Origin: Eledone cirrhosa
Taxonomy: Eukaryota
NCBI GenBank assembly: GCA_964016885.1
Contig: OZ024743.1
Coordinates: forward strand, 361,398,001 to 361,462,000
Length of the DNA stretch: 64,000 bases
Direction: 5' to 3'
Program-made: the position numbers and the translations under genes
Notes under the pieces: generated by a model
Told to the model about the DNA's origin: nothing
The model's input: the letters and a program-made list of their open reading frames with translations, nothing else
Databases searched by the model: none
Shown: piece by piece, positions 1-63,763 of the stretch
Position numbering within the stretch: position 1 is the first letter of the stretch
Layout: each line of letters starts with the position of its first letter

Positions 1-1174
1 AGGGAAATCAAGTCGGTTCCTGTCAGTCAGTTGGAACTGGTTGATCAGGTACTCGAGGCTTTGCACACCCACCTCCCATTCGTGACCGACTAAAAGATTC
101 AATGATCTGAGAGTCATCAAAACGTCCATACTTAGAGATCTGAGGTAGTTGAGCAGGCGACCCTGCTTCCAGGAGGACCCCAGGCCACGCACGTTTACAC
201 ATCCTACTCTTAGGATTCTCCCGTTGGCAGGCTGAAAGAAAGAGAGAGAGAGGGGGGAAATGTACTTACTTCTCTGGGTTTTGCCGAGGTCGGGTGGTAC
301 AACCTCTATGGTTGGTTGTGTTTCCTTGGGGAACACCATTAAAAGTCTAGATGTGGGTTTCACGTTCGTGGTTCACACGTCTCGAGGAGAGCTCTTTCTT
401 ATTTCTTTGTAGGCACCGACCGACATGCGTATCGAAAGATCGTCCTGTAGGCGAAATGTGCTGGTGCCGAATATATCCCCCTCCATTTTTATATCTTTCC
501 TTCGTGCTATCAGCAGCATCAATTCCTCGTTGGCCCTTCTTAATAACACGAAGTTGTGTGTTTGTGTATTTTGTTATGTTCTTGGTATGGTTGATTGCGT
601 TCGTGGGATTTGGGTGGTGATGGTTTTGTTTGTGTTGTTTTGGGTGTGTCTGTGTTTGTTGTGGGTGCGTTGTCTTCGATTTCAGTTGTCTGTGTGTTTT
701 TTTCCTTGTGTCTGCTTTAGTTGTTTGCGTTTGGGGGATTATGGTGATGGTGGTGTTGGTGTTGATGGGGAAGTGTTTTAGTGGGCGTTGTTTGCATTTT
801 CTGTTGTGCTTTTTTTCTTTGTGCATCTTCTTTTTGTTTTTTGGCTGGGTTTGGTATTCCCTTGTCTTCACTAGTGGAAGACGAGGGGTCTGTGGCTGTA
901 AGTGTGTTTGTGTCTCTGTGTGGGTTTGTGTTTTTGTCCATGTGTATATTTTTGGTAGGAGGGTAAATGGGAGAGCCTTCTTCGTTTCCACCCCTGGGTG
1001 GGCGAATTTGGTGGTGACGTTTCCGCTGTTGCTGCTGTTATTGCCCGTGCTGGTTCTAGTGTTGGTGGTGGTTCTCGCCCCAGCGTCGGCAGCAGTGACG
1101 ACCTCTGTCCCTTTGCATTTTTCAATAGTTGAGGGCACAGGAATGGAATTTGGCATACAAATGTGAGGTTCCAC
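1..1174 (-). mobile_element. L1/Tx1-like LINE fragment: low-complexity ORF1 3' part (347-1174), then the start of the ORF2 APE endonuclease running off the window
   Basis: Minus strand from about 215 translates LRVGCVNVRGLGSSWKQGRLLNYLRSLSMDV, which matches the NVRGL start motif of APE endonucleases. It lies just downstream of a 275-aa T/K/Q-rich ORF. Confidence 0.55.
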
Positions 1175-24340: not shown

Positions 24341-24631
24341 CTATTGGGATGATAACCCGTTTAGTTTTGGTTTAAATTTGTTAAGGAATAGATTTTCTTT
24401 GTTTATTCTTTGTTGCTGTGTGAACGAATCTGAGCACTTGTAGAAGGGGAAGATTTTAAAGTTGGGTAGTGTCATTCCTGCGCAGTTCGCAATATGGCTG
24501 CTCAAGGGGATTTTTCTTGTGTTAGCGTCCCGGATTTGTTGGCGGTGGATGGTCATTCTTTTGCGTAATGAGGTGCCCGTCTGTCCTATGTAGTTGTGTT
24601 TGCACCCACCGCAAGTTATTGCGTAAATCAA
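24341..24631 (-). pseudogene. PLE GIY-YIG endonuclease domain (Neptune-like by its CxxC motif; clade assignment is inference)
   Basis: IY..CxxC..YIGQT..LRKRM..H motif in an intact 96-aa frame that is truncated at the 5' end. Confidence 0.85.
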
Positions 24632-25146
24632 GTGTGTGTATGTATGTGTGTATCAGGATGTATGTGTAAGTATATATATGTGTGTGTATATGTATGTGTG
24701 TGTATGTGTATATATATGTGTGTATGTGTGTATGTATATGTATGTGTGTGTGTATGTATGTGTGTATATGTATATATATATATATATATGTGTGTATGTA
24801 TATGTATATGTATGTATGTGTGGATGAAGGTATATATGTGTGTGTATATATAGGTGTAAGTGCACTAAATCCCTTTCCTACCGACCGCAGGAAGATATAT
24901 GTATGTATATTGCTTCCACCCCCTCACTGACCAGCAGCTGGCCATCTGGCCATTGCTAAATCTGACCTTTATAAAATAACCCACACCCCCAAATAACTCC
25001 TCATTCACTACCAAAAAGGCACCCAGCAGTCAACTGGCTACTACCAAGATGAAAACTACTGTGAAATCCCACAATGAATTTTATACTTGAATTTTCAAAT
25101 GTCAAATTTTAACTCTTCTTATTATTAATTTTTCTTAATACTAATC

Positions 25147-25852: not shown

Positions 25853-26554
25853 ATATATATATATATATATATATACATATATGTATATATATGTAAGTAG
25901 AAGGGAATTTTAATTTGTTTGAAATACAACAAATATAAATGATTATATCTGATTCAGAGCACTGGACAGATTTTGGAGTAAATATTCAATGGTATTAAAT
26001 AAATGAATACAATATTTATAATACCATATTTATTCTATTATATATATTTCAAGGGTGCCAACATTTAGGTACGCTATCATCAGATAAAATACAAAATGTC
26101 TTATAAATATTTGACATAACCAAGGATAATATACCTTAACGGTTCAAGTTATCCCTGGAAAATGAGGGGAAGAGAAAAAAACGAGATATTGAAATTATTA
26201 ATATGAGTATGCAAATGAGGTTTATGTAAAAGGGGTGAAAAAAACGTTATTTTAGGTTTCTGTAAATTCTGTATTGAAGAAGATTCTGTAAATTGTGTAT
26301 TGAAGAAATATTTGATATAATTAATTGTAAAAACTCTATTAATCTCAGAAGAGAGATATTTAGTTCTTGCAGACATCGCCAAAATTCTACATTCAGAACA
26401 AATAACGATAAAAACAAATGACGAAACGAAATTAAATTTCGTTTCGTTTGTAACTCACTTTTGTATGACAGACGCTTACAAACGAAACGAAATTTAATTT
26501 CGTTTCGTTATTTGTTTTTATCGTCTCCGCTGAACCGGTACGTACTCATGCTCT

Positions 26555-26603
26555 ATGCAAATTAGTCTGCCCACTACTAATTTTCATAGAAAAAGCATAT
26601 AAC
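26555..26603 (+). promoter_or_regulatory. Octamer plus TATA-like box upstream of the HHR (also 27021; 37212 and 37657 on minus; 63478)
   Basis: ATGCAAAT lies 88-100 nt before the HHR core in all three arrays, with a TATA-like run ~45-57 nt before the core. Confidence 0.55.
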
Positions 26604-26647
26604 GATATGTGCTTTTACGATTCTCTAGAAAGGCCGGAAGATAGGTA

Positions 26648-26692
26648 AATATTGCTGATGAGATGTAACAACATCGAAACTAGTCCAATATT
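26648..26692 (+). ncRNA. Type I hammerhead ribozyme, canonical core
   Basis: AATATTG CTGATGA GATGT-AACA-ACATC GAAA CTAG TC CAATATT: 7-bp stem I, 5-bp stem II, palindromic minimal stem III, GUC cleavage site. Confidence 0.93.
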
Positions 26693-27113
26693 CCTTGTCT
26701 GGCTTTCTGGAGAATAGAGGAAAGGTGTTTCCTCGAAAACCAGTATGACTCTAAAAACCGGTTTGTCTGTGTGTTTACATACAGAATAGCTGGACACTCA
26801 CAGTAAAGTGACCAGTGAAAAACTCGGTACATCTACATATGTATACGTGTGTGTATTCATATGCATACTAGTATTTCAGTATACATATGTGGATGTACAT
26901 TTTTAACTTAATTGTTTAAGCGTCTGTCATACAAAAGTGAGTTACAAACGAAACGAAATTTAATTTCGTTTCGTTATTTGTTTTTATCGTCTCCGTTGAA
27001 CCGGTACGTACTCACGCTCTATGCAAATTAGTCTGCCCACTACTAATTTTCATAGAAAAAGCATATAACGATATGTGCTTTTACGATTCTCTAGAAAGGC
27101 CGGAAGATAGGTA

Positions 27114-27158
27114 AATATTGCTGATGAGTTGTAACAACAACGAAACTAGTTCAATATT
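27114..27158 (+). ncRNA. Type I hammerhead ribozyme, second unit of array 1
   Basis: AATATTG CTGATGA GTTGT-AACA-ACAAC GAAA CTAG TT CAATATT. Stem II has a compensatory A-U to U-A change relative to unit 1. Confidence 0.92.
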
Positions 27159-28201
27159 CCTTGTCTGGCTTTCTGGAGAATAGAGGAAAGGTGTTTCCTC
27201 AAAAACCAGTATGACTCTAAAAACCGGTTTGCCTGTGTGTTTACATACAGAATAGCTGGACACTCACAGTAAAGTGACCAGTGAAAACTCGGTACATCTA
27301 CATATGTATACATGTGTGTATTCATATGCATACTAGTATTTCAGTATACATATGTGGATGTACATTTTTAACTTAATTGTTTAAGCGTCTGTCATACAAA
27401 AGTGAGTTACAAACGAAACGAAATTTAATTTCGTTTCGTTATTTGTTTTTAAAATATATATATAGATATTTATATATTATTATAATAAGATAAAAAATTT
27501 CAAACATAATTCTCCATATAAATATATACATAATATAGACAAACATCTGAATATATTTCTCCCAAATTAACGTTTAAGTGGTCTTCCTTTTCCTTTTCCT
27601 TTTCCATTTCCTTCTTGTTATTTTTCCTTCTTCTTTAACGATTTTTTGTTTGATAATCTATATAGCTTCGTTAAACTAACAATATTCTGAAAACATTCTC
27701 ATTGTTGAACAACATTTTTGAATCCACAAATTATTCTACTCTCACAACATGAAAATACAATTTCAACTTCCTTCGTAACTCATATTTGATATATAAACAA
27801 TCAATACATACGCAAATTATTAATATATATATATATAGATATTTATATACATATAACCTATCCTAATGTAATAAGATAAAAATACTTGCAACCATAATTC
27901 TTCATATAATCTAATTGATTATACAATATTATAACTCATAATATAGGTAACAGACCTTTTAACCCAAATTATTCCTTACTCTTCCTTCCTACGCATACAG
28001 TAACTTATTATAATTATTTAAATTTTCCATAGCCTCTAAAATAACGTTTTTTTTCAATCCTTTAACATAAACCTCATTTGCATACTCATATTAATAATTT
28101 TAGATATCTGTTTTTCTTTTCTTCCCTTCACTTCCCAGGGATAACTTGTACCGTTAAGGTATATTATCCTTGGTTACGTCAAATATTTATGAAACATTTT
28201 G

Positions 28202-28262
28202 TATTTTATCTGATGATAGCGTACCAAAATGTTGGTACCCTTGAAATATATATAATAGAATA
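28202..28262 (+). ncRNA. Type I hammerhead in a PLE pseudo-LTR; inverted copy at 26031-26091(-)
   Basis: TATTTTAT CTGATGA ..GTACCAA-AATG-TTGGTAC.. GAAA TATATA TA ATAGAATA, with an 8-bp stem I. Confidence 0.82.
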
Positions 28263-28324
28263 AATATGGTTTTATAAATATTGTTTCTATTTATTTAATA
28301 TTATTGTGTATATATATATATGTA

Positions 28325-29277: not shown

Positions 29278-32200
29278 TTGAGTATATGTTGGTTGTATAC
29301 CAACACCTCAGTATGCATATTGGAGCACTCGACGAAGTGCGCAGGTTGGTTACTCCGGAGTAATGTAAAATAAACTAAAATAAATAAGTCAAATGTTTAA
29401 AATTTGGCTTCGTTTATTACTGCTATATATATTTCGGTGATACACATCTTCGGCTCTGATCTCTTCAGGTAGTCCTAATTAGTGTGGTAGAGACGAGTAC
29501 ACATGTTGTTGAGGTGTTCAAATTTGTCAAGTCTCTGATATGCCCAGTTCCTGGTTGGGTTGTTATTTCACTGAGGAACTGGAATCATATGAATTACAAC
29601 AAATGAATTTCAGCGTCAAAGGACATCTTCTCCTCCCATTGGTCAGTTGTCAGAACATTCCTCAGTCAAAAGTCTATAGAAATTCGTTCTGAGGCGAGGC
29701 AATCTGTAGTTGTTGTTCTTCTTATTGTTAGGTACATCTGACCTCTATCCTTATGTTGGTAGTGGTGTTGTTGTTGGGGTCAGCTAAAAAAAAGTGATAA
29801 AGTTGTAGAAGGAATAAGATGGTAAAGGAACAAAATAAAATAAGATAATCAAATAAAATGTGTGTGTGTTATACCCAATCTCACGCAGAAAAATCACGTG
29901 GTACATGCCACCCAACTCAGCGGCCATAAAGAACAGCTTGGCCCGATCATTCTTTGTGCACTTGATAAATGCCTCCCGAGGGACCATAGATACCACGAGA
30001 TCTTCAACAGACACACTGTGAAGCTTTCGTATTCCACCAGGAGAAATCTGGCCCAACACATAGCTAGCATCAACAGGAGATGGCTTAATAACCACACACA
30101 TCCAGAAGATGGCAATATAAGCGCCCAGAAGAACCATGTGGAAGGAGAGAAGGGGGGACCCAGTGCCCACCCAAGAAACTCAAACAGACCCGGGGACCTC
30201 CCACCGTTCCCGGGGGAGGACCCCATGTAACACGTAACGGGAACCCCACACTAGGCACGCAGAAGTGGACCATCCTCTGCAACTGCAGAAACCCCGAATC
30301 ATGCCCCCTTAGTAATGAATGCCTTAAGAAGAACCTAATATACGGATGTAGCGTTAAAACCCCCAACTCCGAACACCTCTACATAGGAGCCACATCAACG
30401 AGCTTTAAAGACCGTTGGTACAAACATCGCCATTCCTTCAATAAGGAGGCTAAAAAGAAAAGTACGGCTCTTTCCGACCTGATCTGGAAGCTTAAGCTGG
30501 ATAGGACCCCGTACTCCCTGGCCTGGTCCATAATCAGGAAATTACAATCCGATAAAGGATCTGGCTTATGCAAACTATGTCTGAACGAGACCCTCGAGAT
30601 ACTAAGAGGTGGAAGCCGCCTGATAAACCTCAGAACCGACTTCTTCGGGACATGCAGACACCTCAGGGCCGGTACCTTCCTCAAGCTATATGGACAGTAA
30701 CAACACACTGAGATGTGAACTCCCCTCAAGCTATAGGGACTTCTCCGGAACATGTAGACACCTCTTGGCCGGACCCCCCCTCAAGCTATATGGGCAGTAA
30801 CAACACCATAGGCTGGGAACTCCCCTCAAGCCATAGTGACCCTCCCAGGCTAAGCAAACCCCATGAAAGCCTAGAGATTGATTCTGACATAGCCTTTCTA
30901 ATTTGGCCAACATCTTTGTAACAAACACACATTTTATTTTACTTGAATTTTCATTTTTTTATTTTTCATTTGTTTTCTGTTTTCTTGACTTTATTGCCTT
31001 CTATGTCTTCCTATGCATGGCACAACCTCTCCCCCCCCCCCCCACACACACAACTACCACCACCACCACCACCACGAGATATGGTGGCAGGCGGATGAAA
31101 AACACACACAGATACTTCTTAATGTCAGCAGCAGCAAGACCTAGGCTGACCGCAGCACCAACACCACTACCAAAATAAGGGTAGAGGTCAGATGTACTTA
31201 AACAAACACTACAGGCAGCCTCACCCCAGAAAGAATTTCCATAGACTTTTGACTGAGAAATGCTCTCACAACTGACCAATGGGAGGAGTGAACTTGCAAA
31301 TCTTTCTAACGTTGAGATTGGTTATAACACACACATTTTATTTGATTATCTTATTTGTTTTATTATTTTACCACCTTTGTTCCTCCTGCCACTTAATCCA
31401 ACATCCTTCTGACTTTGAGATTGGTTATAGCACACACACATTTTATCTTATTTGAATCTTCATTTTTATTTTTCATTTTTCATTTATTTATATTTATTAT
31501 TTATTTTCCGTTTTCTTCATTTTATTGCCTTCTATTTCTTCATATGCATGGCACAGTCCCCACCACCACCATTACCACCACCACCTCCACCACCACGAGA
31601 AATGGTGGCACGATGGATGAAGAAACACACACACAGGTACTTTTAAATGTCAGCAGTAGCAAGAACTAGGCTGACCACAGCACCAACACCACTACCAAAA
31701 TAAGGGTAGAGGTCAGATGTACTTAACAATAGCAAGAACAAACACTACAGGTAGCCTCACCCCAGAAAGAATATCTATAGACTTTTGACTGAGGAATGCT
31801 CTCACAACTGACCAATGGGAGGAGTGACCTTACAAATCTTTCTAACATTGAGATTGGGTATAACACACATGTTTTATTTTATTATCTTATTTTATTTTGT
31901 TCCTTTACCATCTTATTCCTTCAACCACTTTATCATTTTTTTTAGCTGACTCCAACACCACTACCAACAAAAGAGTAGAGGTCAGATGTACTTAACAATA
32001 ACAAGAACAACCACTACCGGTTGCCTCGCCTCAGAACGAATTTCTATAGAATTTTGACTGAGGAATGTTCTCACAATTGACCAATGGGAGGAGATGTACT
32101 TTGACGCTGAAATTCATTTGTTAAATTCATATGATTTCAGTTCCTCAGTGAAATGACAACCCAACCAGGAACTGGGCATATCAGAGTATTGCCAAATTTA

Positions 32201-32445: not shown

Positions 32446-32495
<50 letters not shown>

Positions 32496-32497
<2 letters not shown>

Positions 32498-32678
32498 TTT
32501 TAATATAGATGAGATTCTACAGGACTAGAACTGTTTCATTCTTTAGGAATCCTGATGATTTCTAAAGAATGAAACAGTTCTAGTCCTGTAGAATCTCGTC
32601 TATATTAAAACTTTTATACTCTGCAATGTATTGAGTACCTTCCTTACTGTGGTTAACTCCGATTCAACCCGGAATAAC

Positions 32679-33020: not shown

Positions 33021-36640
<3,620 letters not shown>

Positions 36641-36839: not shown

Positions 36840-37930
36840 GAAATTCTCACTCTTAGTACGGCACTTACTTAAATGTAAGTATGTATGTATGTATACGTAC
36901 ATACATATATGTATACAGACGTACAGTAGTATGTATATGTATACATACATGCACACATATATTTATGCACGTATCGGTTTACCGAACATTTATTATAATG
37001 CTCGGTTTGTTTCTTTGTAAACAAACAGAGGCCGAATTACGCCGTACGGTGTTTAGGCAACCACGTCACCTTTTTGTTCAACACTGACACAGGAACGATG
37101 TACTAGTTTCAAGCTTATAAGTTATGGTCAGCATCGTATACCTTCCTGCCAGTTGGTTGAACGTCTGAAAGTATATAATTTCCCTATGCATATTAACGGC
37201 TGAGCAGCCTAATTTGCATATCGTGTGAGTTCAGTCGGCCGGGCACACCGAAAACGATAAATGGAATAGAATGAAACAAAATTTCATTTTTCACTCTTAT
37301 ACGGCACTTACTTAAATGTAAGTATGTATGTTTGTATACGTACATACATATATGTATACCGACGTACAGTAGTATGTATATATATACATACCTGCACACA
37401 TTTATATATTCACGTATCGGTTTAGCGAACATTTATTATAATGCTCGGTTTGTTTTTTTGTAATCAAACAAACAGCCCGAATTACGTCGTAAAGTGTTTA
37501 GGCAACCACGTCCTTTTTTTGTTCAACACGGACAAAGGAACGATGTACTAGTTTCAAGCTTGTTAGCTATCGTCAGCATCGTATACCTTCCTGCCAGATG
37601 GTTGAACGTCTGAAAGTATATAATTTCCTTATGCATATTAACGGCTGAGCAGCCTAATTTGCATATCGAGTGAGTTCAGTCGGCCGTGCACACCGAAAAC
37701 TATAGATGGAATAGAATCAAACGAAATTTCATTTCTCACTCTTAGTACGGCGTAATTCGGGCTGTTTGTTTGTTTACAAACAAACAAATTGAGCATTATA
37801 ATAAATGTTCGGTAAACCGATACGTGCATATATATATATATATGTGTGCATGTATGTATATATATATATATATACTACTGTACGTCTGAATACATATATG
37901 TATGTACGTATACATACATACTTACATTTA
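36840..37930 (-). mobile_element. Retrozyme-like tandem array 2: about 2 units of 445 nt with an inverted 5' segment (37745-37930); partial copy at 32820-33020
   Basis: Period 445 (stem I at 37095 and 37540). One HHR and one octamer per unit. Ends in (TA)n. Confidence 0.85.
37540..37582 (-). ncRNA. Type I hammerhead ribozyme; the sister copy at 37095-37137(-) has a G8C core mutation
   Basis: Minus strand reads ACGATG CTGACGA T AGCT-AACA-AGCT T GAAA CTAG TA CATCGT. Stem I can extend through AGGAA/TTCCT. Confidence 0.9.
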
Positions 37931-42840: not shown

Positions 42841-43910
42841 CTATCCGTTAGGGTATAACGTGGGGCTGTAATACAGGAAAGTTTTGTGCAATTTATGTTT
42901 ACGAGCCGAAATTGTCTCAGATTTTTTGTTTAAGATGTGGTCTGTGGCGTAGAGTATTTCCAGGGCCTCAGCGGCGCAGAGGTCACATGGTCTTTTATTT
43001 CCGTTATACGATCTAGCCCTAGCTAGGATCTCCCAGTGTAACTTATATTGGGTGTGGTTGTCATTTAGACTCAAGATATAAGCTGAAAGTGACGTCATAT
43101 TCCTTCTTAGAGGGTAACGAAAAGAATGGGTATGCATGTAAAGACGCTGCTTGAATCTATTGGCGGTTAACCCTATGTAGGCCCTACGGGACGTGGGTGT
43201 TACAACCTTACATTTGTAGACAATGTTACTAGAGAGGCATTTCCCGGATAGGGGGCAATCAACCCGATTCCTACAATTACAGTTAGTACTAACTACAGGG
43301 TTGCACGTGTTCCTACGGCTAGGTAGTTTAGCTAAATTTGAAGCTGTGATGTTATGTGCAAGGTTAGGAGTCGTAGAGAAAGAAATTTTAATAGTATTTC
43401 TATTAAAAATTTTACTATATTTATGTGTAGGGGGAAAATGCTTCGTAATAAGGGAAAGAAAGATGTTAGCTATTGGTGTGGCCACCTCCATATTATATGG
43501 TGGGTTATACCAACAAATGCGACGGGATCTATTTCTTCTAGGTCTAATTTCGTACTCTGTAAATGCTACCTTATCGACAAATCCACTTCGAGCAAGAGCT
43601 TCATTGTAATAAGTGGAATGGTCGTTGAAAATACGCTCGTTGGTGAAAAGACGGGAGAGCCTCAACGAAACGTTTCTTACCAGGTTCTTGGTTATGCTGG
43701 CGGGATGGTTGGAATGCTTACTTATGTAATTAAGCGAATCATTCGGCTTTCTATACGGGTAATACAACCCATTCAATAAATTGAGGGTAACGTCAAGGTA
43801 ATTAACGACCGAGAGATTGGCCTCAACCTGTATAGAGAGGTTGAAGACTTTAAAGAAGGCTGTTAGTTCTTTTCTGAACCTGTCGCAAGCACGAGGTCCG
43901 CACTTAGTCA
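42841..43910 (-). CDS. PLE polyprotein C-terminal part: RT motif E/thumb, Cys-rich linker and GIY-YIG endonuclease (open frame, 5' truncated)
   Basis: NYLDVTLNL..YYPYRKPN..YI..SNHP, WYNPPY, LITKHFP, CNCRNRVDCPLSGKCL..IVYKC..YIGLT..FKQRL..H..SF, CDLCAAE. The first ~100 aa of ORF 42841-44205 come from the inverted pseudo-LTR and are not real coding sequence. Confidence 0.92.
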
Positions 43911-44756
43911 TAGGTAAGTATATATTACCCGTATATTTCGTGAAGTTACGTATACCTTCCCGTACGTATATTTGATTGTTTATGTTATGGCGTATACATT
44001 TTTTTATTTTTTTTATTCTGGTACATATGGTTTGGCTATGTGTATACGGGAGTTTTGCGTCTGTTTGAGTATGCAGGTTCGCACGTATGTAGGGTGTGTG
44101 TATATGTGTATTTCTTGTTTTGGTTAACTTACGTCTCCGAACATTCGTGTATTTACGTGGAGGTATGTGTGTGCGCTTGTTATATACGTATTTATTTACG
44201 TTCATTTAATTATTTATTTATTTGTACACACGCATACACACACACACATATTTATATGTGCGTGGTTTTGTATACCTATGGTAAGTGTTTTGCGTATGCT
44301 TGTGTATGTACGTATTTGTTAGCGGGTATGTATTTATTTATTTCTATTACTTCTGTATTGTATTTATTTACTTTGTTCTTAACTCTGTAGCGGAGATTCA
44401 TTCGGTCTCCTAGTTAGAATTTTAGTCTACGACTTCTGCTATACCATTTACGTGGTTTTGTCTTTGCGTGCTATTGTTCTCCATGCTCCACATATGACGT
44501 ATTATCTTCGTTTTTTTCGTTCATTGCCGGAGAACGTCTCTATGAACCACCTAAGAGAACATTAGTCTACGACCACTTTTATACCATAAACGTGGTTCTG
44601 CCTTTGCGCGTAATTGTTTTTCACCGCTCCTATTAATCACGTATCTTATTCGTTTTTGTCCCGTTCTTTGCCAGGGAACGTTTACACGAACCAAAGTATC
44701 GTCTTCCTGTCTTCCTCCGGTTGCAACGTTTTTTTAAATATCCACTTCTGCGTTTA

Positions 44757-45689: not shown

Positions 45690-47572
45690 CTGTCTGAGTT
45701 TGTTTATCGGTAAGCCCATATAAATATATGCCTATACGTATGTATCTGTATGAAAGATTGGCTATGTGTGGTAGGAACTTATAAATCTACACTCATTTCA
45801 ACCTTTATCAATCTTATCAAATAGCCAATGTGTATTACATAGAGTATTTAACACATCTCTACTTTACACTTGCCAATTCCATATCTTCAACTTTATCTGT
45901 AATAGGCCATCTGGATACAGCTTACACTAAATAGATGTATTAGCTGTCATCCGGCTTGGCTTTAATAAAGACTATCCCATTTATTCTATATATGATCACT
46001 TCTAAACGAATGGAAGCTAGCATTTATGTACTATATGAGCCTGTTGGATACCCATTGGTTAACATATTGGCCAGTCCTCCTTATCATCGCCAGTATCCAT
46101 ATATTACACATTTTCTGATGAATTGTTGACGTTAAAACTATTGCAATGCGGAAATGATTGGAATATCCTAACAAACCCGTAGACAGTGAGATAACTCAAA
46201 AATGAAACATGTAAAAATGTATAATGAAATAGTTTTTTTCTAATACCCCCTTGTATGTTTATCCTTAATACGTGAATTATATATATATACACTATTATAT
46301 TTTGGGATGGCCATGTTGTTAATATTGCCAAAAAATGAAACAAGCAACAAATGATTTGCTTTATTACTTGTTATTGGTTAGTTTGTCAGAGTCCTTTCGT
46401 CACACATTCTGTGACATCTTCAATGACTATCTATTATCGGTTGTACCTCCTCTGCTTTCTGGTCTTAATTCGTTTCTCCATTTTATCATTCGTTTCGTGG
46501 TGTGTTTTTCGTGATTCATGTCAATGAATGCTATTGTATCCACGCCTTCTCGTGTGTGTGAGTGTGACTTTGTATTTATCATGTGTATGTGCGTTTTATG
46601 TGTAGGCATGTATATTTCACTGCTTGTATCTTTTTTCTTCTTCCATATTCTGTCTTCAGTCGTGACGAGCTGTTTTTATATCGCTCGTGGTTTCTGTTCA
46701 TGCTAAATCTAGCAAATGTGTGTGGCCTCAATCACATATCATAATCGAGATGATCTTATATATATATATATATAAGAACCATTAACGCCGTTATTGGATG
46801 CATTCAACACAAATTATTTTAAAATTAAATTTATAAAGCCTATTAACACACATTTTACGATTTATAAATATCCATTATCGGTGACTAATTAGGAGAAAGA
46901 CTACATACACATACAAACACCGATACAAATACACGCGCGCGCGCCTATCACACACTCACACACACAAACATAAATATATGTGCTTGATATCCCCGTCAAC
47001 CCACAGGAGAGAATCCAGAGTAAAATAAAACCATTAAACTTTACTATGATATTTAACCTTTTCATATATAGAAACCTATACAAACACAATGAATCTCACA
47101 CCTTACATAAACCCACATGGTGTGACTACTTTCAAACCAAGGCAATCTTAATTATAATAAAGAAAGGAGTGCGGGACTGCATTCAGAATATATTTTACTG
47201 ATTACAGAAGACAGTGTAACATAACTTCGTTCAATTACTGTGTATATTGTCAATTACGATTTTATTTGATGTATCATATCTACATGCATATATATTTGTA
47301 TATAATATCAATATACACACTACACATGCTAGCAGAAAACCCTCTGAGGGTTGTTTTTCTGCTAGTATATATAAACAATAATGAACGACTATTCCGCTAG
47401 AAAAAGGTGCCGAAATATTAGTCTCGACAGCTCTACAAATTAAGTGAAATGGAGCTATAATAGAGAAAGGTGAGGAATCAAAACATATCAAATATGTTAG
47501 ATTTCCGTGCTTCTCAATAAACCAGCTCAATAGTCTTTATTCAAAGCCATACTAATTCAAATGTAAAAGATC

Positions 47573-47619
<47 letters not shown>

Positions 47620-48757
47620 AGAGAGAAAGGATCATATATCTGTGAGAAAACACAATATATATTATATATACTGAGCACATATTTCAAAGAAAAATAGGTA
47701 CTCTAGATGGAATCAAATGACGAGTATTCCCAATACTGGATTGGCATACATTATCGTTTTAACCACGAGCATAATATCCATATAATTTCTTGTTACATTC
47801 TCCATATAATCTTGTTTTTGCTTCTCCTCCTCCCCACTCTCGCTGTAGCACTGGGTTTCATATATTTTCTAATCCAATCAGCTATCTCCCAAAAAGAAAC
47901 TATTTTAATTCCGGGATTACACCTCTCTAACACTGATATGATTTCATTTTCCATTGTTCTTTCCCAGAAAGATATGTTTCTAAATTATTTAATCCGTTTA
48001 TTAAACATTTGTCTTAAGACATGACTAACAGACGTAGCTTACTCTAATGTATGATTGTTACTTGACAAAACATTTGATTACAATGAATTTTCTTGTGTGT
48101 GAATCATTTCACATCACACACACATTAATATATATGAAAAACGTAAAACAAGAAAATTATAGTAATTAGCTTACTTACTTAAATTTCACTCCAAATAATT
48201 AGTTTCTGAATGCTGGTAGATATACTAATTCTTTATAATTATCTCCAAATTATTTTGTTGAGCACAAATTTGCCCAAATTACTGCTATAGTTCATAGTAA
48301 CATCTTGGCTACTGTCTTTTTAACACCTCACTCCTCACTGATTAACCTCGATGTCACGTGATTGATTCTTTTGAATTTGCCACCGAGCAAGAAGGCAGTG
48401 ATTTTTTCAATGTCTTGGAATTTAGTCCCCGCTTTCTCTTTTCCATCCACTGAATATTTTTATATAAGTTCCCTGTGTCCGCGCATCACCAGGTATCTTA
48501 GCTGAGAATGACTCCCTGGTGACGAAAAGGTTTCTCCATAATCTCCATTTAGAGACTATGTATATTCCCTTTCAGAAACTAATTAGTTGGAGTGAAATTT
48601 AAGTAAGCTAATTACTATAATTTTCTTATTTTACGTTTTTCAGATAATTGTTCTGCATCCCCTTGCATTGAGCCACAACGTTACTAAGACAAAACCTATA
48701 TATTTGCTTGCATAGTTATTCATTTGTATATATACGTTGATAGATATACTAATTCTT

Positions 48758-49025: not shown

Positions 49026-49062
49026 TCACACACACACATACATATATATGTATATATATATA

Positions 49063-49250
49063 TAATTGTTTCTACTTTTGGCACAAGGCCAGCAATTACC
49101 CAGTAGATTACTGGTACTTTATTTTATCGACCCCGTAAGGATGAAAGTCAAAGTTAACCTCGGCGGGATTTGAACTCAGAATGGCCGTAACTCTATACGT
49201 CAAAGCATGGCGTCCGACGCTCTACCGATACTGCCAATTCACCGCCAATT
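49063..49250 (-). mobile_element. Octopus-type tRNA-derived SINE
   Basis: Reverse complement of the units at 51608-52200. B-box-like GAGTTCAAATCC and body GACTTT..CTTTCATCCTT.CGGGGTCGATAAAATAAAGTACCAG. Confidence 0.85.
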
Positions 49251-51607: not shown

Positions 51608-52203
51608 TTGGCAGTATCGGTAGAGGGTCGGACACCATGCTTTCCAGCATAGTTACGTCCCTTTACGATCTGAGTTCAAATCCCGTCGAGGTTGACTTTG
51701 CCTTTCATCCTTACGGCGTCGATGAAATAAAGTACCAGTAACGCACTGGGTAATTGCTGGCCTTGTGCCTAAAGTAGAAACAATTATTTATTCGAAGGGC
51801 GGTAGATTGGCAGTATCAGTAGAGGGTCGGACGCCATGCTTTCCAGCATAGTTACATCCCTTTACAATCTGAGTTCAAATCCCGCCGAGGTTGACTTTGC
51901 CTTTCATCCTTACGGGGTCGATAAAATAAAGTACCAGTAATGTACTGGGTAATTGCTGGCCTTGTGCCTAAAGTAGAAACAATTATTTATTCGAAGTATA
52001 TAGGGCGGTGGATTGGCTGTATCGGCAGAGACTCGGACACCATGCTTTGCAGGATAGTTACGGCCCTTTACGGTCTCAGTTCAAATCCCGCCGAGGTTAA
52101 CTTTGCCTTTCATCCTTACGGGCTCGATAAAATAAAGTACCAGTAATGTACTGAGATAATTGCTGGCCTTGTGCCAAAAGTAGAAACAATTATTTACTTG
52201 AAG
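51608..52203 (+). mobile_element. Three head-to-tail copies of the ~200-bp SINE
   Basis: Units start near 51608, 51797 and 52003, each with GTTCAAATCC and the same 3' end. Confidence 0.9.
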
Positions 52204-52304
52204 TAATCCAATTTATTTTACTAACGGGATAAAAATATATATTCTGGACGCAGCCTCTCACCTTCCTTTATTATATTTATATACATATAAATATATATAC
52301 ATAC

Positions 52305-60539: not shown

Positions 60540-62822
60540 AGCTAAGAAAAACAAGACCACAAATTTCACAAGGTAGACAGTATTAAAAGATTGTCAACAT
60601 AGTTTTAGTTTGATGTAAGGAATGTAGAGAATAATAATAATAATATTAATAATAATAATGTATGTTTACAATTGTTTCGCTACTCCGTATTTCTGGATCA
60701 AATGGTTATAGATCATTATTGATCTGGTTTAGTTGAAAATAATTAACTTAGGTACAATTGAACAGCTCATTGGAACTTCAGAAGGAATATAAATTAAAAT
60801 AAGGAAAGAATGTTACATGAATGTAATGTTCCATATATTGGTATTTCACTATGGTGACCTGGGTATATCTATTGTCTGCCATAGTCGAGCAGTATTCTTC
60901 TGTCGAGGCTGCATTGTGTGAGATCTGCCTATGGGTAACAAGATGGCCGCCAATGGACATATTTACCTTACTAATTAGAGGGTGGTTTCAGGGGAAGTAA
61001 CTCCTCGAGAAATTAGAAATTGTGGGTAGTTTATAGTTAAGAAGTGCTAATTCTGTTCATTTTTTTTATAGAGAGACAATGTAAGGGAGGTAACTTATAA
61101 TTATCTAAGTTAGCTATAACTATTTAACGTATTAGCTATAAGTAAAAATGGGAATAGATGACTATGTTGGGTCAAATATTCTGTTGGCGAAGGAATTAGC
61201 CTTTCGATGTTGACAGCTAATAGTTACCTCCGTTCTATCGTTAATCTGTAGAGGTCACAAGAGTTTCTTTATTAATTGAACGGTTGGGCCCAAGCCAATA
61301 TATCCCATGTTAGTGAGTGTTCAATTTAAGGTTTTTAATGAGCCTAGCTAGAGATGTCGAACATCTGTTGTTAGGGTCTCGGAAGGAAAAAGAGTGCGCG
61401 TTATAGCGTACCTTAAAAGGGTTAGAGGTATAGCCGATATAGGAGCTGGTATGCGAAGCAGTTTTAACTGTGCACCTATAAACTATATTGGGTGTCAGGC
61501 AATGTCCGTTTAGTGGGCATGCATTAGGGTAATGGCAGTTGCAGTATTTTCTGCGGTTAGTGAGAGTACGGGTGTTTAAATTATGCGGTGGTCCGTGCTA
61601 GAAAGATTAGATGGGGGAGGTGTGCTACTAGAGTAAGTATTGGTGTAGTGGCGTGGTGTATTTGATGGGGGTGGTGGTACCGCGGTGTGGGAGTTATACT
61701 GTCTTAGTTTATGATGGTTACTGAATGCGATGTGGCTAGCTAGGTTAGGTGTTGTGGAGAATGAGAATTTAATGTTGTTTAAATATCTATGGTTGGGGGA
61801 AATGTTTAGATAGGATAGAGAAGAAGCGTTTAGAGATATTAGTGGCTAGATTAGATTAGATGAGAATGCGGGGTTAAGCCAGGTGATATTTCTAGGCCTA
61901 TTCCTTCTAAGGGTACTAGTGGAGTTGGTAGGGGCCTTCATATGGTTATTATTACCTGGACATTTGTTATTTGTCATCCCATTACTCATTCCTATTCTAG
62001 GGTTGATTTTTAGTTTGCTACTTGGAGTGGGAAGTAGGCCACTGCCACCATTAAGTTTCCCTATAGGTGCTGTTACTGCGAAAATTCCGGCGAATCTTGC
62101 TATATGCTAACGTATTTCTAGTTCTAGTGTTAAGTTTATTATGGTTGTGGTGAAATGCTGTGTTATGGCATTTAGGGATGTAGTAAATGGACTGTTCATA
62201 ACCAGATTCAGAAAGAGCCTTATTATAATATGCCGCATGGTTTATAAATATCTCCTCATTTGCTGATAGCATGGAGATCCTATACGAGATAGATTTGATT
62301 ACTGCTCTGATGACTGCCGGTGGGTGGTTAGAGTGTGGGCTAATATATGTAAGTATTTCACCTGGTTTATGATAAGGGTAATATAGGTTAATATTCTAGG
62401 GTAACGTCTAGGAAGTTTACTATTTTATGGTTATTTTAAAAGAATCTATGTAATTGTTTTTTGAGCAAGTCAATGCCTCGATTAGTCCAATTGTGAACTG
62501 CAAATAGAGCGTCGTCCCTATATATTCCGCCTTGCAAGGGATGGATTTCAGCTCTGATGTTATGTAATATGTAAATTCCAACTAAATCGGTGATTTGCGC
62601 AGAGTCACTTGAGCCCATAGTGATGTCAACATTGTCTGTTCTGTCTTTTCTAGTCCAGAGTGCTCCGTTGAATTCAATGATGGTCTGCCTAGCCATAAGT
62701 ATGATGTCAATCTCATTATTGGTTATATCAGAGTTGGTGCTGGCTAGGTTTAATGCTTTGTTGAGCAGTGCCGGGATTATTGAAGCGTAATAGCTGTCAA
62801 TGTCAAATTGGAGGAACCTCAT
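60540..62822 (-). mobile_element. Decayed 5'-truncated PLE (RT core 62436-62822, thumb, linker, GIY-YIG ~61200-61560, pseudo-LTR)
   Basis: LQFDIDSYYASI, MGSSDSAQITDLVG, GGIYRDDAL, WLNPAF, YCNCH..CPLNGHCL..IVY. An HHR 3' half GAAACAATTGTA lies at ~60666-60679(-). Confidence 0.88.
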
Positions 62823-62916
62823 AGATTCCTTGCAAATCAGGGACGATCAGTCACTGCGTATTTTTGAAAACAGCAGATATTTTCACTAGTTCTGACAGTT
62901 TGGCAGGTGAACAGTC

Positions 62917-62964
62917 AGCTGTACTGATGAACGGTGATACCCAGAAACATTAGTGTCTGCAGTT
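62917..62964 (+). ncRNA. Type I hammerhead ribozyme; sister copy at 63567-63608
   Basis: AGCTGTA CTGATGA A(C/G)GGT-GAT-ACCCA GAAA CA-TTAG-TG TC TGCAGTT, GUC site. Confidence 0.88.
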
Positions 62965-63083
62965 CTGATCACATGCCAACAGAAAAGCAAGAATGAAGGG
63001 TTCATTCTACTGACATAGCTATAAAATTTGGGCTTGCTTGCATAATTGCAACCAAATCGAATGCTATTATTAATATTCGAAAA

Positions 63084-63271
63084 TCAGGCGGTGGATTGGC
63101 AGTATCGGTAGAGGGTCGGACGCTATGCTTTCCTGCATAGTTACGTCCCTTTACGATCTGAGTTCAAATCCCGCCGAGGTTGACTTTTCCTTTCATCCTT
63201 ACGGGGTCGATAAAATAAAGTACCAGTAATGTACTGGGTAATTGCTGGCCTTGTGCCTAAAAGTAGAGACA
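63084..63271 (+). mobile_element. SINE inserted in array 3 with a probable 18-bp target-site duplication
   Basis: ATTATTAATATTCGAAAA at 63066-63083 and 63272-63289. The second unit has a single (empty) site near 63699. Confidence 0.85.
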
Positions 63272-63763
63272 ATTATTAATATTCGAAAAACTCAGATTAC
63301 ATTTATTGTGTTCAGCCATGTAGAGCGAAAACATTTTCTTTTTTATGTGAATTTGGCAAAGCCGGCCATTTATCGCTCGTATACAGGAAACTGACCGACC
63401 AGTCTGTTGCTATGCAAATCAGGCTGATCAGTGGATCTGATAATATGCAGATCTGACTGGTCAGCCAATCTGCTAATATGCAAATCAGGCCGATCAGTCA
63501 CTGTGTATTTTTGAAAATAGCATATATATTCACTAGTTCTGACGGTTTGGCAGGTGAACAGTGAGCTGTACTGATGAAGGGTGATACCCAGAAACATTAG
63601 TGTCTGCATACCAACACAAAGCAAGAATGAAGGGTTCATCTACTGACATGACCATAAAATTGAGGCTTGTTTGCATAATTGCAACCGAATCGAATGTTAT
63701 TATTAATAATCGAAAAACAGATTACATTTATTGTATTCAGCTATGTAGAGCAAAGAAATTTTC

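What the first reader, a model, noticed from the sequence alone, without database searches (positions are those of the whole stretch)
26555..26655. Conserved octamer plus TATA internal promoter placed to start transcription at the ribozyme
Seen: ATGCAAAT is 100, 88 and 93 nt upstream of C3 in arrays 1, 2 and 3. In arrays 1 and 2 it forms an imperfect inverted repeat with a second octamer-like half, and in array 3 it is triplicated at 33-nt spacing (63412, 63445, 63478). A TATA-like box lies ~27-32 nt before the shared GGC(A/C)GG that precedes stem I. Known: the octamer is the POU/Oct site of snRNA distal elements, and newt satellite 2, also an HHR tandem repeat, is transcribed from an snRNA-type promoter containing an octamer. 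Inference: each unit carries the promoter for its own HHR, a design shared or convergent between amphibian and mollusc elements.
Basis: partly seen in the sequence, partly recalled or inferred. Interest (0 to 1): 0.8.

Follow-up and report, generated by a model that had tools for sequence, protein, structure and literature searches.

The report
Retrozymes carrying host snRNA promoter parts
Tens of thousands of small, protein-free jumping repeats with a self-cutting RNA in this animal genome keep, just ahead of the ribozyme, the same short DNA words that stand before the host's own small nuclear RNA genes, which likely lets each repeat transcribe itself, although no transcription start has been measured.

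Summary
Observation confirmed: ATGCAAAT lies 100, 88 and 93 nt before hammerhead C3. The arrays are related non-LTR retrozyme families; the octamer-plus-core pattern occurs 33,174 times genome-wide. TATGCAAAT is the only 9-mer shared by five families in the 150 nt upstream. Host U6/U6atac genes carry the same word at -76 to -78 with TATA at -30. Host U1/U2 genes carry TCA(G/A)T at -56 to -58 plus a TATA-like word. A U1/U2 model built without the octamer places its box 16 nt after the octamer in 8 of 17 retrozyme clusters, implying a start about 73 nt after it, inside stem I. Array 1 itself fails that model and looks weakly U6-like. The 'second octamer half' is better read as an RNA hairpin arm. 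Best reading: a built-in snRNA-type promoter, likely Pol II. No RNA evidence was obtained. The idea is known for newt satellite 2, and this scan noted it before on other DNA of this genome.

The parts
26476..27451 (+). Array 1: about 2.1 tandem units (466 bp) of retrozyme family F1
   Evidence: self-BLAST 98% over 511 nt; 872 candidates genome-wide, the best 40 near-identical, many in tandem
26554..26565 (+). Extended octamer TATGCAAAT-N-AG, unit 1 (exact octamer 26555-26562; unit 2 at 27021)
   Evidence: invariant across six families in alignment A1; same word at -76 to -78 of host U6 genes
26570..26581 (+). Position of the PSE-like box in F1 (CCCAC...); fails the U1/U2 model, weakly resembles the U6 flank
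   Evidence: 3.6 bits, 0 of 10 copies p<0.05; 5.9 bits on a four-sequence U6 model, above 40 of 40 control octamers
26577..26588 (+). Inverted partner of the octamer; predicted 3' arm of an RNA hairpin
   Evidence: pairing probability of the octamer 0.86 in F1; partner differs in sequence and place between families
26598..26603 (+). TATA-like word TATAAC, 43 nt after the octamer start
   Evidence: modal +43 in 9 of 10 F1 copies; lies in a predicted hairpin arm
26626..26628 (+). Predicted transcription start (A at 26627, octamer +72, TATA +29); inferred, not measured
   Evidence: host spacing TATA to start about 30 nt; other F1 copies have CA here
26627..26716 (+). Type I hammerhead with extended stem I; core C3 at 26655, predicted cleavage after GUC at 26685 (unit 2: C3 27121, GUU)
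   Evidence: Rfam HH9 38.9 bits, E 2.5e-6, below gathering score; circular fold
36844..37751 (-). Array 2: two 445-bp units of family F2; octamers start at 37664 and 37219, TCAG box at +16, TATATA at +42, C3 at 37576 (intact) and 37131 (broken core)
63411..63504 (+). Three 33-nt copies of octamer plus TCAG box in family F3; GATCAGTGGAT and ATCAGTCACT are identical to words at -57 of host U2 genes
   Evidence: 20 bits on the U1/U2 model, 11 of 11 copies p<0.05
63523..63604 (+). F3 TATATA (63523), predicted start (63551-63552) and hammerhead (C3 63571, predicted cleavage after 63604)
62831..63087 (+). Second, 5'-truncated F3 copy (C3 62924), cut within the octamer and joined head to head to a Penelope-like RT fragment

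Best explanation
These arrays are non-LTR retrozymes (tandem 445-466-bp protein-free repeats with a type I hammerhead) that keep an octamer, a TCAG-type box and a TATA-like word at fixed spacing ahead of the ribozyme, and this block likely acts as a built-in promoter using the host's snRNA transcription factors, predicted to start RNA polymerase II about 72-74 nt after the octamer. Inferred mechanism: the transcript would begin inside stem I, about 45-60 nt before the cleavage site, so the first hammerhead would fold and cut off the short capped leader; the polymerase would run through the next unit's promoter to the next hammerhead, giving a unit-length RNA that contains the promoter sequence, would circularise and would be copied back into (TA)n sites by a Penelope-like reverse transcriptase. 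Shown: anatomy, conservation, likeness to host snRNA flanks. Inferred: factor binding, polymerase, start site, cleavage, circles, mobiliser.
For: TATGCAAAT is the only 9-mer common to families F1-F5 in the 150 nt before C3, and is invariant in a six-family alignment with 47% mean column identity; between octamer and C3 the 17 cluster representatives are only 47.8% alike against 44.4% for shuffles. Flanks follow the OCT1 consensus ATGCAAATNA (PMC2475627 table): A at +9 in 13 of 14 clusters, T at -1 in 14 of 14 against 24 of 40 control octamers. Features not used to select loci: YCAS at +16 in 9 of 14 against 6 of 40, TATA-like word at +41..46 in 8 of 14 against 6 of 40. Host U6 (three locus groups) and the best U6atac locus have the octamer or a one-base variant at -76 to -78 and TATA at -30; 9 of 9 non-redundant U1/U2 flanks have TCA(G/A)T at -56 to -58. 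A U1/U2 model puts its box at +16 in 8 of 17 clusters; F3 scores 20.0 bits and F5 14.8 bits (12 of 12 copies p<0.05), against 18-26 for left-out snRNA flanks and a 95th percentile of 10.4 for random DNA. [quoted passage not shown] The octamer-plus-box unit is duplicated in F3 (33 nt) and in F4 copies (41 nt).
Against: No RNA data: no start site, binding or polymerase was observed. F1, the array of this finding, fails the U1/U2 model (3.6 bits, 0 of 10 copies p<0.05), and F2 is placed at +19 in 6 of 12 copies. The reciprocal test is weak: the pooled retrozyme profile gives an implied start of +72..74 in 5 of 9 U1/U2 flanks, only 1 with p<0.05. The models rest on 9 and 4 host flanks; 11 other U6 copies and 5 of 6 U6atac loci had no such flank and were set aside as probable pseudogenes. 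Octamer, box and TATA word all fall in predicted hairpins of a highly paired RNA (-157 kcal/mol against -94 +/- 5 for mononucleotide shuffles), and predicted pairing extends upstream of the proposed start. Clusters share ancestry and most were found by searching for the octamer, so the counts are not independent. In F5 the octamer is no more conserved than neighbours (25 of 71 windows as high). 5' truncation points show no pile-up at the predicted start.
Confidence: 0.6

Rival explanations
1. The block is a U6-like (type 3) RNA polymerase III promoter, at least in F1, in which the octamer word is part of the host's Pol III upstream element.
For: The proximal octamer is seen in host U6/U6atac flanks and in none of 9 U1/U2 flanks; F1 scores above 40 of 40 control octamers on the U6 model; in vertebrates PSE plus TATA selects Pol III (PMC3499247 passages); F1 has no T4 run for 272 nt after the predicted start.
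Against: Octamer-to-TATA spacing is 3-5 nt shorter than in U6; host U1/U2 flanks also carry a TATA-like word; the lack of T4 runs is expected from composition (P 0.43-0.54) and F4 has a T4 at about 114 nt; a unit-length RNA must cross two T5 runs in F1.
Confidence: 0.15
2. The conserved words matter only in the RNA, as hairpin arms or a protein-binding site of the circular retrozyme RNA, and the arrays are transcribed by read-through from outside.
For: The octamer is paired in predicted hairpins in F1, F2, F3 and F5, with G-U pairs in F3 and F5; the TATA-like word also sits in hairpins; the unit is strongly self-paired.
Against: Only one arm is invariant: the partner changes sequence and place (+25..34, +18..29, +10..14 or upstream) and no fixed pairing register fits alignment A1; a structure-only role does not explain the same words at host-like distances in snRNA flanks, which are not transcribed.
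Confidence: 0.13
3. The block is an ordinary mRNA-type Pol II promoter (POU site plus TATA plus initiator) that does not use SNAPc; the likeness to the snRNA box is partial or chance.
For: Octamer and TATA-like word are kept in F1 while the TCAG box is not; C at +72 in 8 of 14 clusters gives an initiator-like CA; reciprocal test weak.
Against: 10- and 11-nt identities between F3 boxes and host U2 boxes at matching spacing; two octamer-less retrozyme-like families also place the box at -77 from C3 (p 0.03-0.07).
Confidence: 0.12

Closest known systems
Metazoan non-LTR retrozymes (Cervera and de la Pena 2020, PMC7229834, passages and Discussion read; Li, Clavereau and Pollet 2026, bioRxiv 10.64898/2026.07.22.740005, first part and passages read)
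   Same: Tandem protein-free units of a few hundred bases, one type I hammerhead per unit, high copy number, coexistence with Penelope-like elements.
   Different: Neither text names an internal promoter: 'promoter' occurs twice in the first (both T7) and not at all in the second. Expression and circles were not tested here.
Newt satellite 2 (Coats, Zhang and Epstein 1994; not held, known here only from its title and one sentence in PMC2220036)
   Same: Hammerhead tandem repeat reported to be transcribed by Pol II from an internal snRNA-type promoter.
   Different: Function was shown there and is only inferred here. That the newt promoter holds an octamer, and starts about 47 nt before the cleavage site, is recalled and comes from no call. 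Sequence homology was not tested.
SNAPc-dependent snRNA promoters (human, PMC3499247; insect PSEA/PSEB/TATA, PMC1761439; passages read)
   Same: Octamer, PSE-like box and TATA-like word in fixed order; spacing that may set the polymerase.
   Different: In humans the octamer is in a distal element and Pol II promoters lack TATA. In this host U6 has a proximal octamer and U1/U2 have a TATA-like word; the retrozyme block mixes the U6 octamer with the U1/U2 box and spacing.
Penelope pLTR promoter of Drosophila virilis (Schostak et al. 2008, PMC2377424, abstract read)
   Same: Internal promoter in a hammerhead-bearing terminal repeat of a related retroelement class.
   Different: Described as TATA-less and LINE-like; here the pLTR-type hammerheads (L033, L035, L059, L092, L097, L126) lack both octamer and box.

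Membership tests
Non-LTR retrozyme | Type I hammerhead in each unit | tested here: met
   Core, stems I-III in all three arrays; one F2 unit has a broken core; Rfam below gathering score
Non-LTR retrozyme | Tandem units of 150-1000 nt, many dispersed copies | tested here: met
   466 and 445 bp units; long tandem runs and 33,174 pattern matches
Non-LTR retrozyme | No protein-coding capacity | tested here: met
   No stop-to-stop frame of 100 aa or more within arrays 1 and 3 units or spanning array 2
Non-LTR retrozyme | Self-cleavage and circular RNA in vivo | not testable with these tools
   No RNA data obtained; only a predicted fold
snRNA-type (SNAPc) promoter | PSE resembling the host's snRNA genes | tested here: inconclusive
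   Met for F3, F5 and several small clusters, partly F2 and F4; not met for F1 under the U1/U2 model; reciprocal test weak
snRNA-type (SNAPc) promoter | Octamer in a distal element about 200 nt upstream (vertebrate form) | tested here: not met
   Octamer is about 72 nt before the predicted start; host U6 has it at -76 to -78, so the vertebrate position does not hold in this host either
snRNA-type (SNAPc) promoter | Binding of SNAPc, TBP and a POU factor; start site at the set distance | not testable with these tools
   Needs ChIP, gel shift or 5'-end data
snRNA-type (SNAPc) promoter | 3' box downstream of the RNA | not tested
   An A-rich CAGA word follows host U1/U2; not scored on retrozymes
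Type 3 Pol III promoter (host U6-like) | Octamer-to-TATA spacing of 46-48 nt | tested here: not met
   41-45 nt, mode 42-43, in retrozyme clusters
Type 3 Pol III promoter (host U6-like) | Transcribed region free of T runs | tested here: inconclusive
   First T4 at 223-355 nt in F1, F2, F3, F5 but not beyond chance; about 114 nt in F4
pLTR of an autonomous Penelope-like element | Contiguous with an RT-GIY-YIG frame in the same element | tested here: not met
   7 of 269 loci have a PLE frame nearby; the two read in full are separated from it by microsatellite; the PLE family beside array 3 ends in a different, octamer-less repeat
Newt satellite 2 | Sequence homology and shown snRNA-type promoter | not testable with these tools
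   Paper not held; no newt sequence at hand

The most novel reading that the evidence does not exclude
Animal retrozymes in general transcribe themselves by carrying a copy of their host's SNAPc core promoter set to fire inside hammerhead stem I; in this genome one clade has added the U6-type octamer to a U1/U2-type core, some families may have shifted towards Pol III, and unrelated octamer-less families use the same core at the same distance. Newt satellite 2 would then be one case of a general rule.
Probability: 0.3. Interest if true: 0.75.

Novelty: new variant of a known kind. Interest (0 to 1): 0.55.

Why it matters
Retrozyme RNAs are reported as abundant in many animals, but the two retrozyme papers read here do not say what drives their transcription. 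A promoter that travels inside each unit, built from host snRNA promoter words and kept over many diverged families, gives a direct test with a predicted start site and three mutable boxes. The comparison also lays out this host's U1, U2, U6 and U6atac flanks, which could serve as small-RNA expression promoters for the group; one literature search (listing only) showed no description of them.

Tried and rejected
RNA reads: none obtained, so starts and expression stay open. Within-family conservation was uninformative (40 near-identical copies). T-run depletion as a Pol III sign: not beyond composition. Pile-up of 5' truncations at the predicted start: none in F2, F4, F5. Array 3 as pLTR of the neighbouring Penelope-like element: rejected, 1 of 10 long copies and 1 of 11 short loci have F3 nearby and the element ends in another repeat. 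Autonomous parent for the octamer clade: not found. Same module in metagenome contigs: 35 matches, 1 of 35 passes a loose stem filter and none looks like the module; taken as chance. Fixed octamer hairpin register on alignment A1: uninformative, 30% of cells paired. Second half as a second Oct site: rejected as a general feature, since F3 and F5 have TGTGTA there. The built-in controls reverse the hammerhead too, so they do not test the octamer alone. Literature searches for an earlier report (listings only) showed none for octamer or PSE in invertebrate retrozymes; most subscription papers and the newt papers are not held, and bioRxiv supplements could not be seen.

Full report
Observation. 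The middle copy in array 3 has one mismatch, and one array-2 unit has a broken catalytic core.

What the arrays are. They are tandem, protein-free units of 466 and 445 bp with one type I hammerhead each. The genome (G000, 3.0 Gb) has 63,107 matches to a hammerhead core pattern against 811 for the reversed pattern, and 33,174 matches to octamer plus core at 70-100 nt gap (the listed rows are dominated by tandem copies of F1 and F2). This is the anatomy of metazoan non-LTR retrozymes (PMC7229834, passages and Discussion read; bioRxiv 10.64898/2026.07.22.740005, first part read). The three arrays are related, not independent. A Penelope-like RT-GIY-YIG element abuts array 3, but its family ends in a different, octamer-less repeat, and no autonomous parent was found: 7 of 269 loci have a PLE frame nearby, and the two read in full are separated from it by microsatellite.

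Is the octamer special? A search that excluded the common flanks gave 728 matches and showed further families. I fetched F4 (69 of 69 matches) and F5 (51 of 213) by hammerhead pattern alone, and F2 and F3 from core-pattern lists. Exact octamers were found in 21 of 26 F1, 16 of 24 F2, 5 of 8 F3, 22 of 67 F4 and 24 of 51 F5 regions, truncated copies included; TATGCAAAT was the only 9-mer present in at least a quarter of copies of all five, and no other 8-mer was shared by four. F5 was first seen through the octamer search, and F1 copies were fetched with a query that held the octamer. Between octamer and C3, 17 cluster representatives are 47.8% alike against 44.4% for shuffles. Within families the octamer ranks first in F4 (0 of 76 windows as high; the alignment filter may favour it), near the top in F2 (8 of 72) and average in F5 (25 of 71), as expected if most copies decay after insertion. 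Of 20 hammerhead loci used as controls none carried the octamer at this place, so it marks one clade and is not universal.

Features not selected for. In 14 clusters (three dropped: two deleted F4-type copies and one without stem I; three kept singletons also scored under 4 bp of stem I in the automatic check) T at -1 occurs in 14, A at +9 in 13, YCAS at +16 in 9 and a TATA-like word at +41..46 in 8, against 24, about 17, 6 and 6 of 40 control octamers. The flank fits the OCT1 consensus ATGCAAATNA listed in PMC2475627 (table passage).

Host snRNA genes. Three U6 locus groups have TATGC(A/T)AAT-N-AG at -76 to -78 and TATA at -30; the best U6atac locus has a one-base variant at -77 and TATA at -30. 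Eleven other U6 copies and five U6atac copies lack this flank and were set aside as probable pseudogenes, mostly 5'-truncated or next to microsatellites or repeats; this choice was mine. Nine non-redundant U1/U2 flanks have TCA(G/A)T at -56 to -58, a TATA-like word at -28 to -35 and no exact octamer in the 300 nt printed. A two-block model from these nine, blind to the octamer, places its box at +16 in 8 of 17 clusters and so predicts a start at +73. F3 scores 20.0 bits (11 of 11 copies p<0.05 against dinucleotide shuffles), F5 14.8 (12 of 12 tested), F4 9.7 (6 of 12), F2 9.5 (9 of 12, box mostly placed at +19) and F1 3.6 (0 of 10); left-out snRNA flanks score 18-26 and random DNA 10.4 at the 95th percentile. 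F3's 33-nt repeats hold GATCAGTGGAT and ATCAGTCACT, identical to host U2 boxes. The reverse test is weaker: 5 of 9 flanks imply +72..74, one with p<0.05. F1 instead scores above all 40 control octamers on a four-sequence U6 model, as do two other clusters nearly or fully. Four control loci from two octamer-less families place the box at -77 from C3 with p 0.03-0.07, while six pLTR-type hammerheads do not.

Which polymerase? Octamer-to-TATA is 41-45 nt in retrozymes and 46-48 in U6/U6atac; box-to-TATA matches U1/U2. In Drosophila the Pol II PSEB lies at 30-37 and the Pol III TATA at 34-41 from the PSEA start (PMC1761439 passages), so a 4-nt shift can mark the polymerase. Absence of T runs after the start is not beyond chance, and a unit-length F1 RNA must cross T5 runs. 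Pol II is therefore favoured by inference, least so for F1.

RNA structure. The F1 circle folds at -157 kcal/mol against -94 +/- 5 for mononucleotide shuffles. The octamer is usually paired, but its partner differs in sequence and place between families and uses G-U pairs in F3 and F5. GGC(A/C)GG is part of extended stem I, and predicted pairing continues upstream of the proposed start, which fits selection on multimeric or circular RNA that includes the promoter.

Mechanism (inferred). Host factors would start transcription about 72-74 nt after the octamer, at a pyrimidine-A step inside stem I, 45-60 nt before the cleavage site. The first hammerhead would release the capped leader; read-through to the next hammerhead would give a unit-length RNA carrying the promoter, which would circularise and be reverse-transcribed by a Penelope-like enzyme. 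No step after sequence anatomy was observed, and 5' truncations do not pile up at the predicted start.

Prior knowledge. An internal snRNA-type Pol II promoter is reported for newt satellite 2 (sentence and reference in PMC2220036; the paper was not held; its octamer is recalled). The retrozyme papers read give no internal promoter. Penelope's own promoter is described as TATA-less (PMC2377424 abstract). Searches (listings) showed no report for invertebrate retrozymes. This scan noted the module several times on other DNA of this genome, with readings from 'snRNA-type promoter' to 'hairpin only'; my host-promoter comparison was made before that look-up.

Verdict. A real, lineage-conserved block; a promoter of some kind is likely (about 0.85 over three readings), a SNAPc-type Pol II promoter about 0.6. 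New variant of a known kind; interest 0.55.

Noticed in passing
L292, L293, L294, L374 (U6, U6atac); L307-L310, L342, L354-L364 (U2, U1): This host's snRNA flanks differ from the vertebrate plan: U6/U6atac have a proximal octamer at about -77, and U1/U2 have AATTA at about -90, TCAGT at -57 and a TATA-like word at about -31.
   Followed up: partly
L038, L042, L091, L094: Two octamer-less hammerhead families (one in 311-bp tandem arrays) have a (T/C)CAG box at -77 from C3 and TTCTATAAG 27 nt later, the same geometry as F3.
   Followed up: partly
window 25979-26255 and 28036-28314: A 279-bp inverted repeat pair flanks array 1 and itself holds TATGCAAATGAG (26209, 28076); the same word and flank lie 275 nt upstream of U6 copy L306.
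   Followed up: no
window 51608-52206, 63087-63272, 49056-49246; L298, L299, L303: A 199-bp SINE-like repeat is inserted in array 3 and between the TATA region and the gene in several copies of the U6 tandem array on C19.
   Followed up: no
window 61170-62846 (minus): Broken, 5'-truncated Penelope-like RT-GIY-YIG element with a CxCx4CP linker; about 90% identical relatives with frames up to 727 aa end in a repeat with a degenerate hammerhead-like core (L282-L291).
   Followed up: partly
window 32495-32613 (C3 at 32552): Hammerhead of another very abundant family (core ending GAAACAGTTCTAGTC), present as a short inverted pair; no octamer in the one copy scored.
   Followed up: no
window 33320-33365 (minus): Rfam Histone3 stem-loop match at 36.5 bits, above the gathering score of 34, inside a 977-bp segment duplicated at 46903-47878.
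   Followed up: no
window 42841-44205 (minus), 30092-30700, 24341-24652 (minus): Further Penelope-like fragments; weak to clear GIY-YIG matches for the last two.
   Followed up: no
L141, L145, L067, L076: F4 copies carry the octamer-plus-box unit twice at 41-nt spacing, a duplication separate from the 33-nt repeats of F3.
   Followed up: partly
L378: A U6atac copy lies directly beside an inverted F3 promoter region.
   Followed up: no
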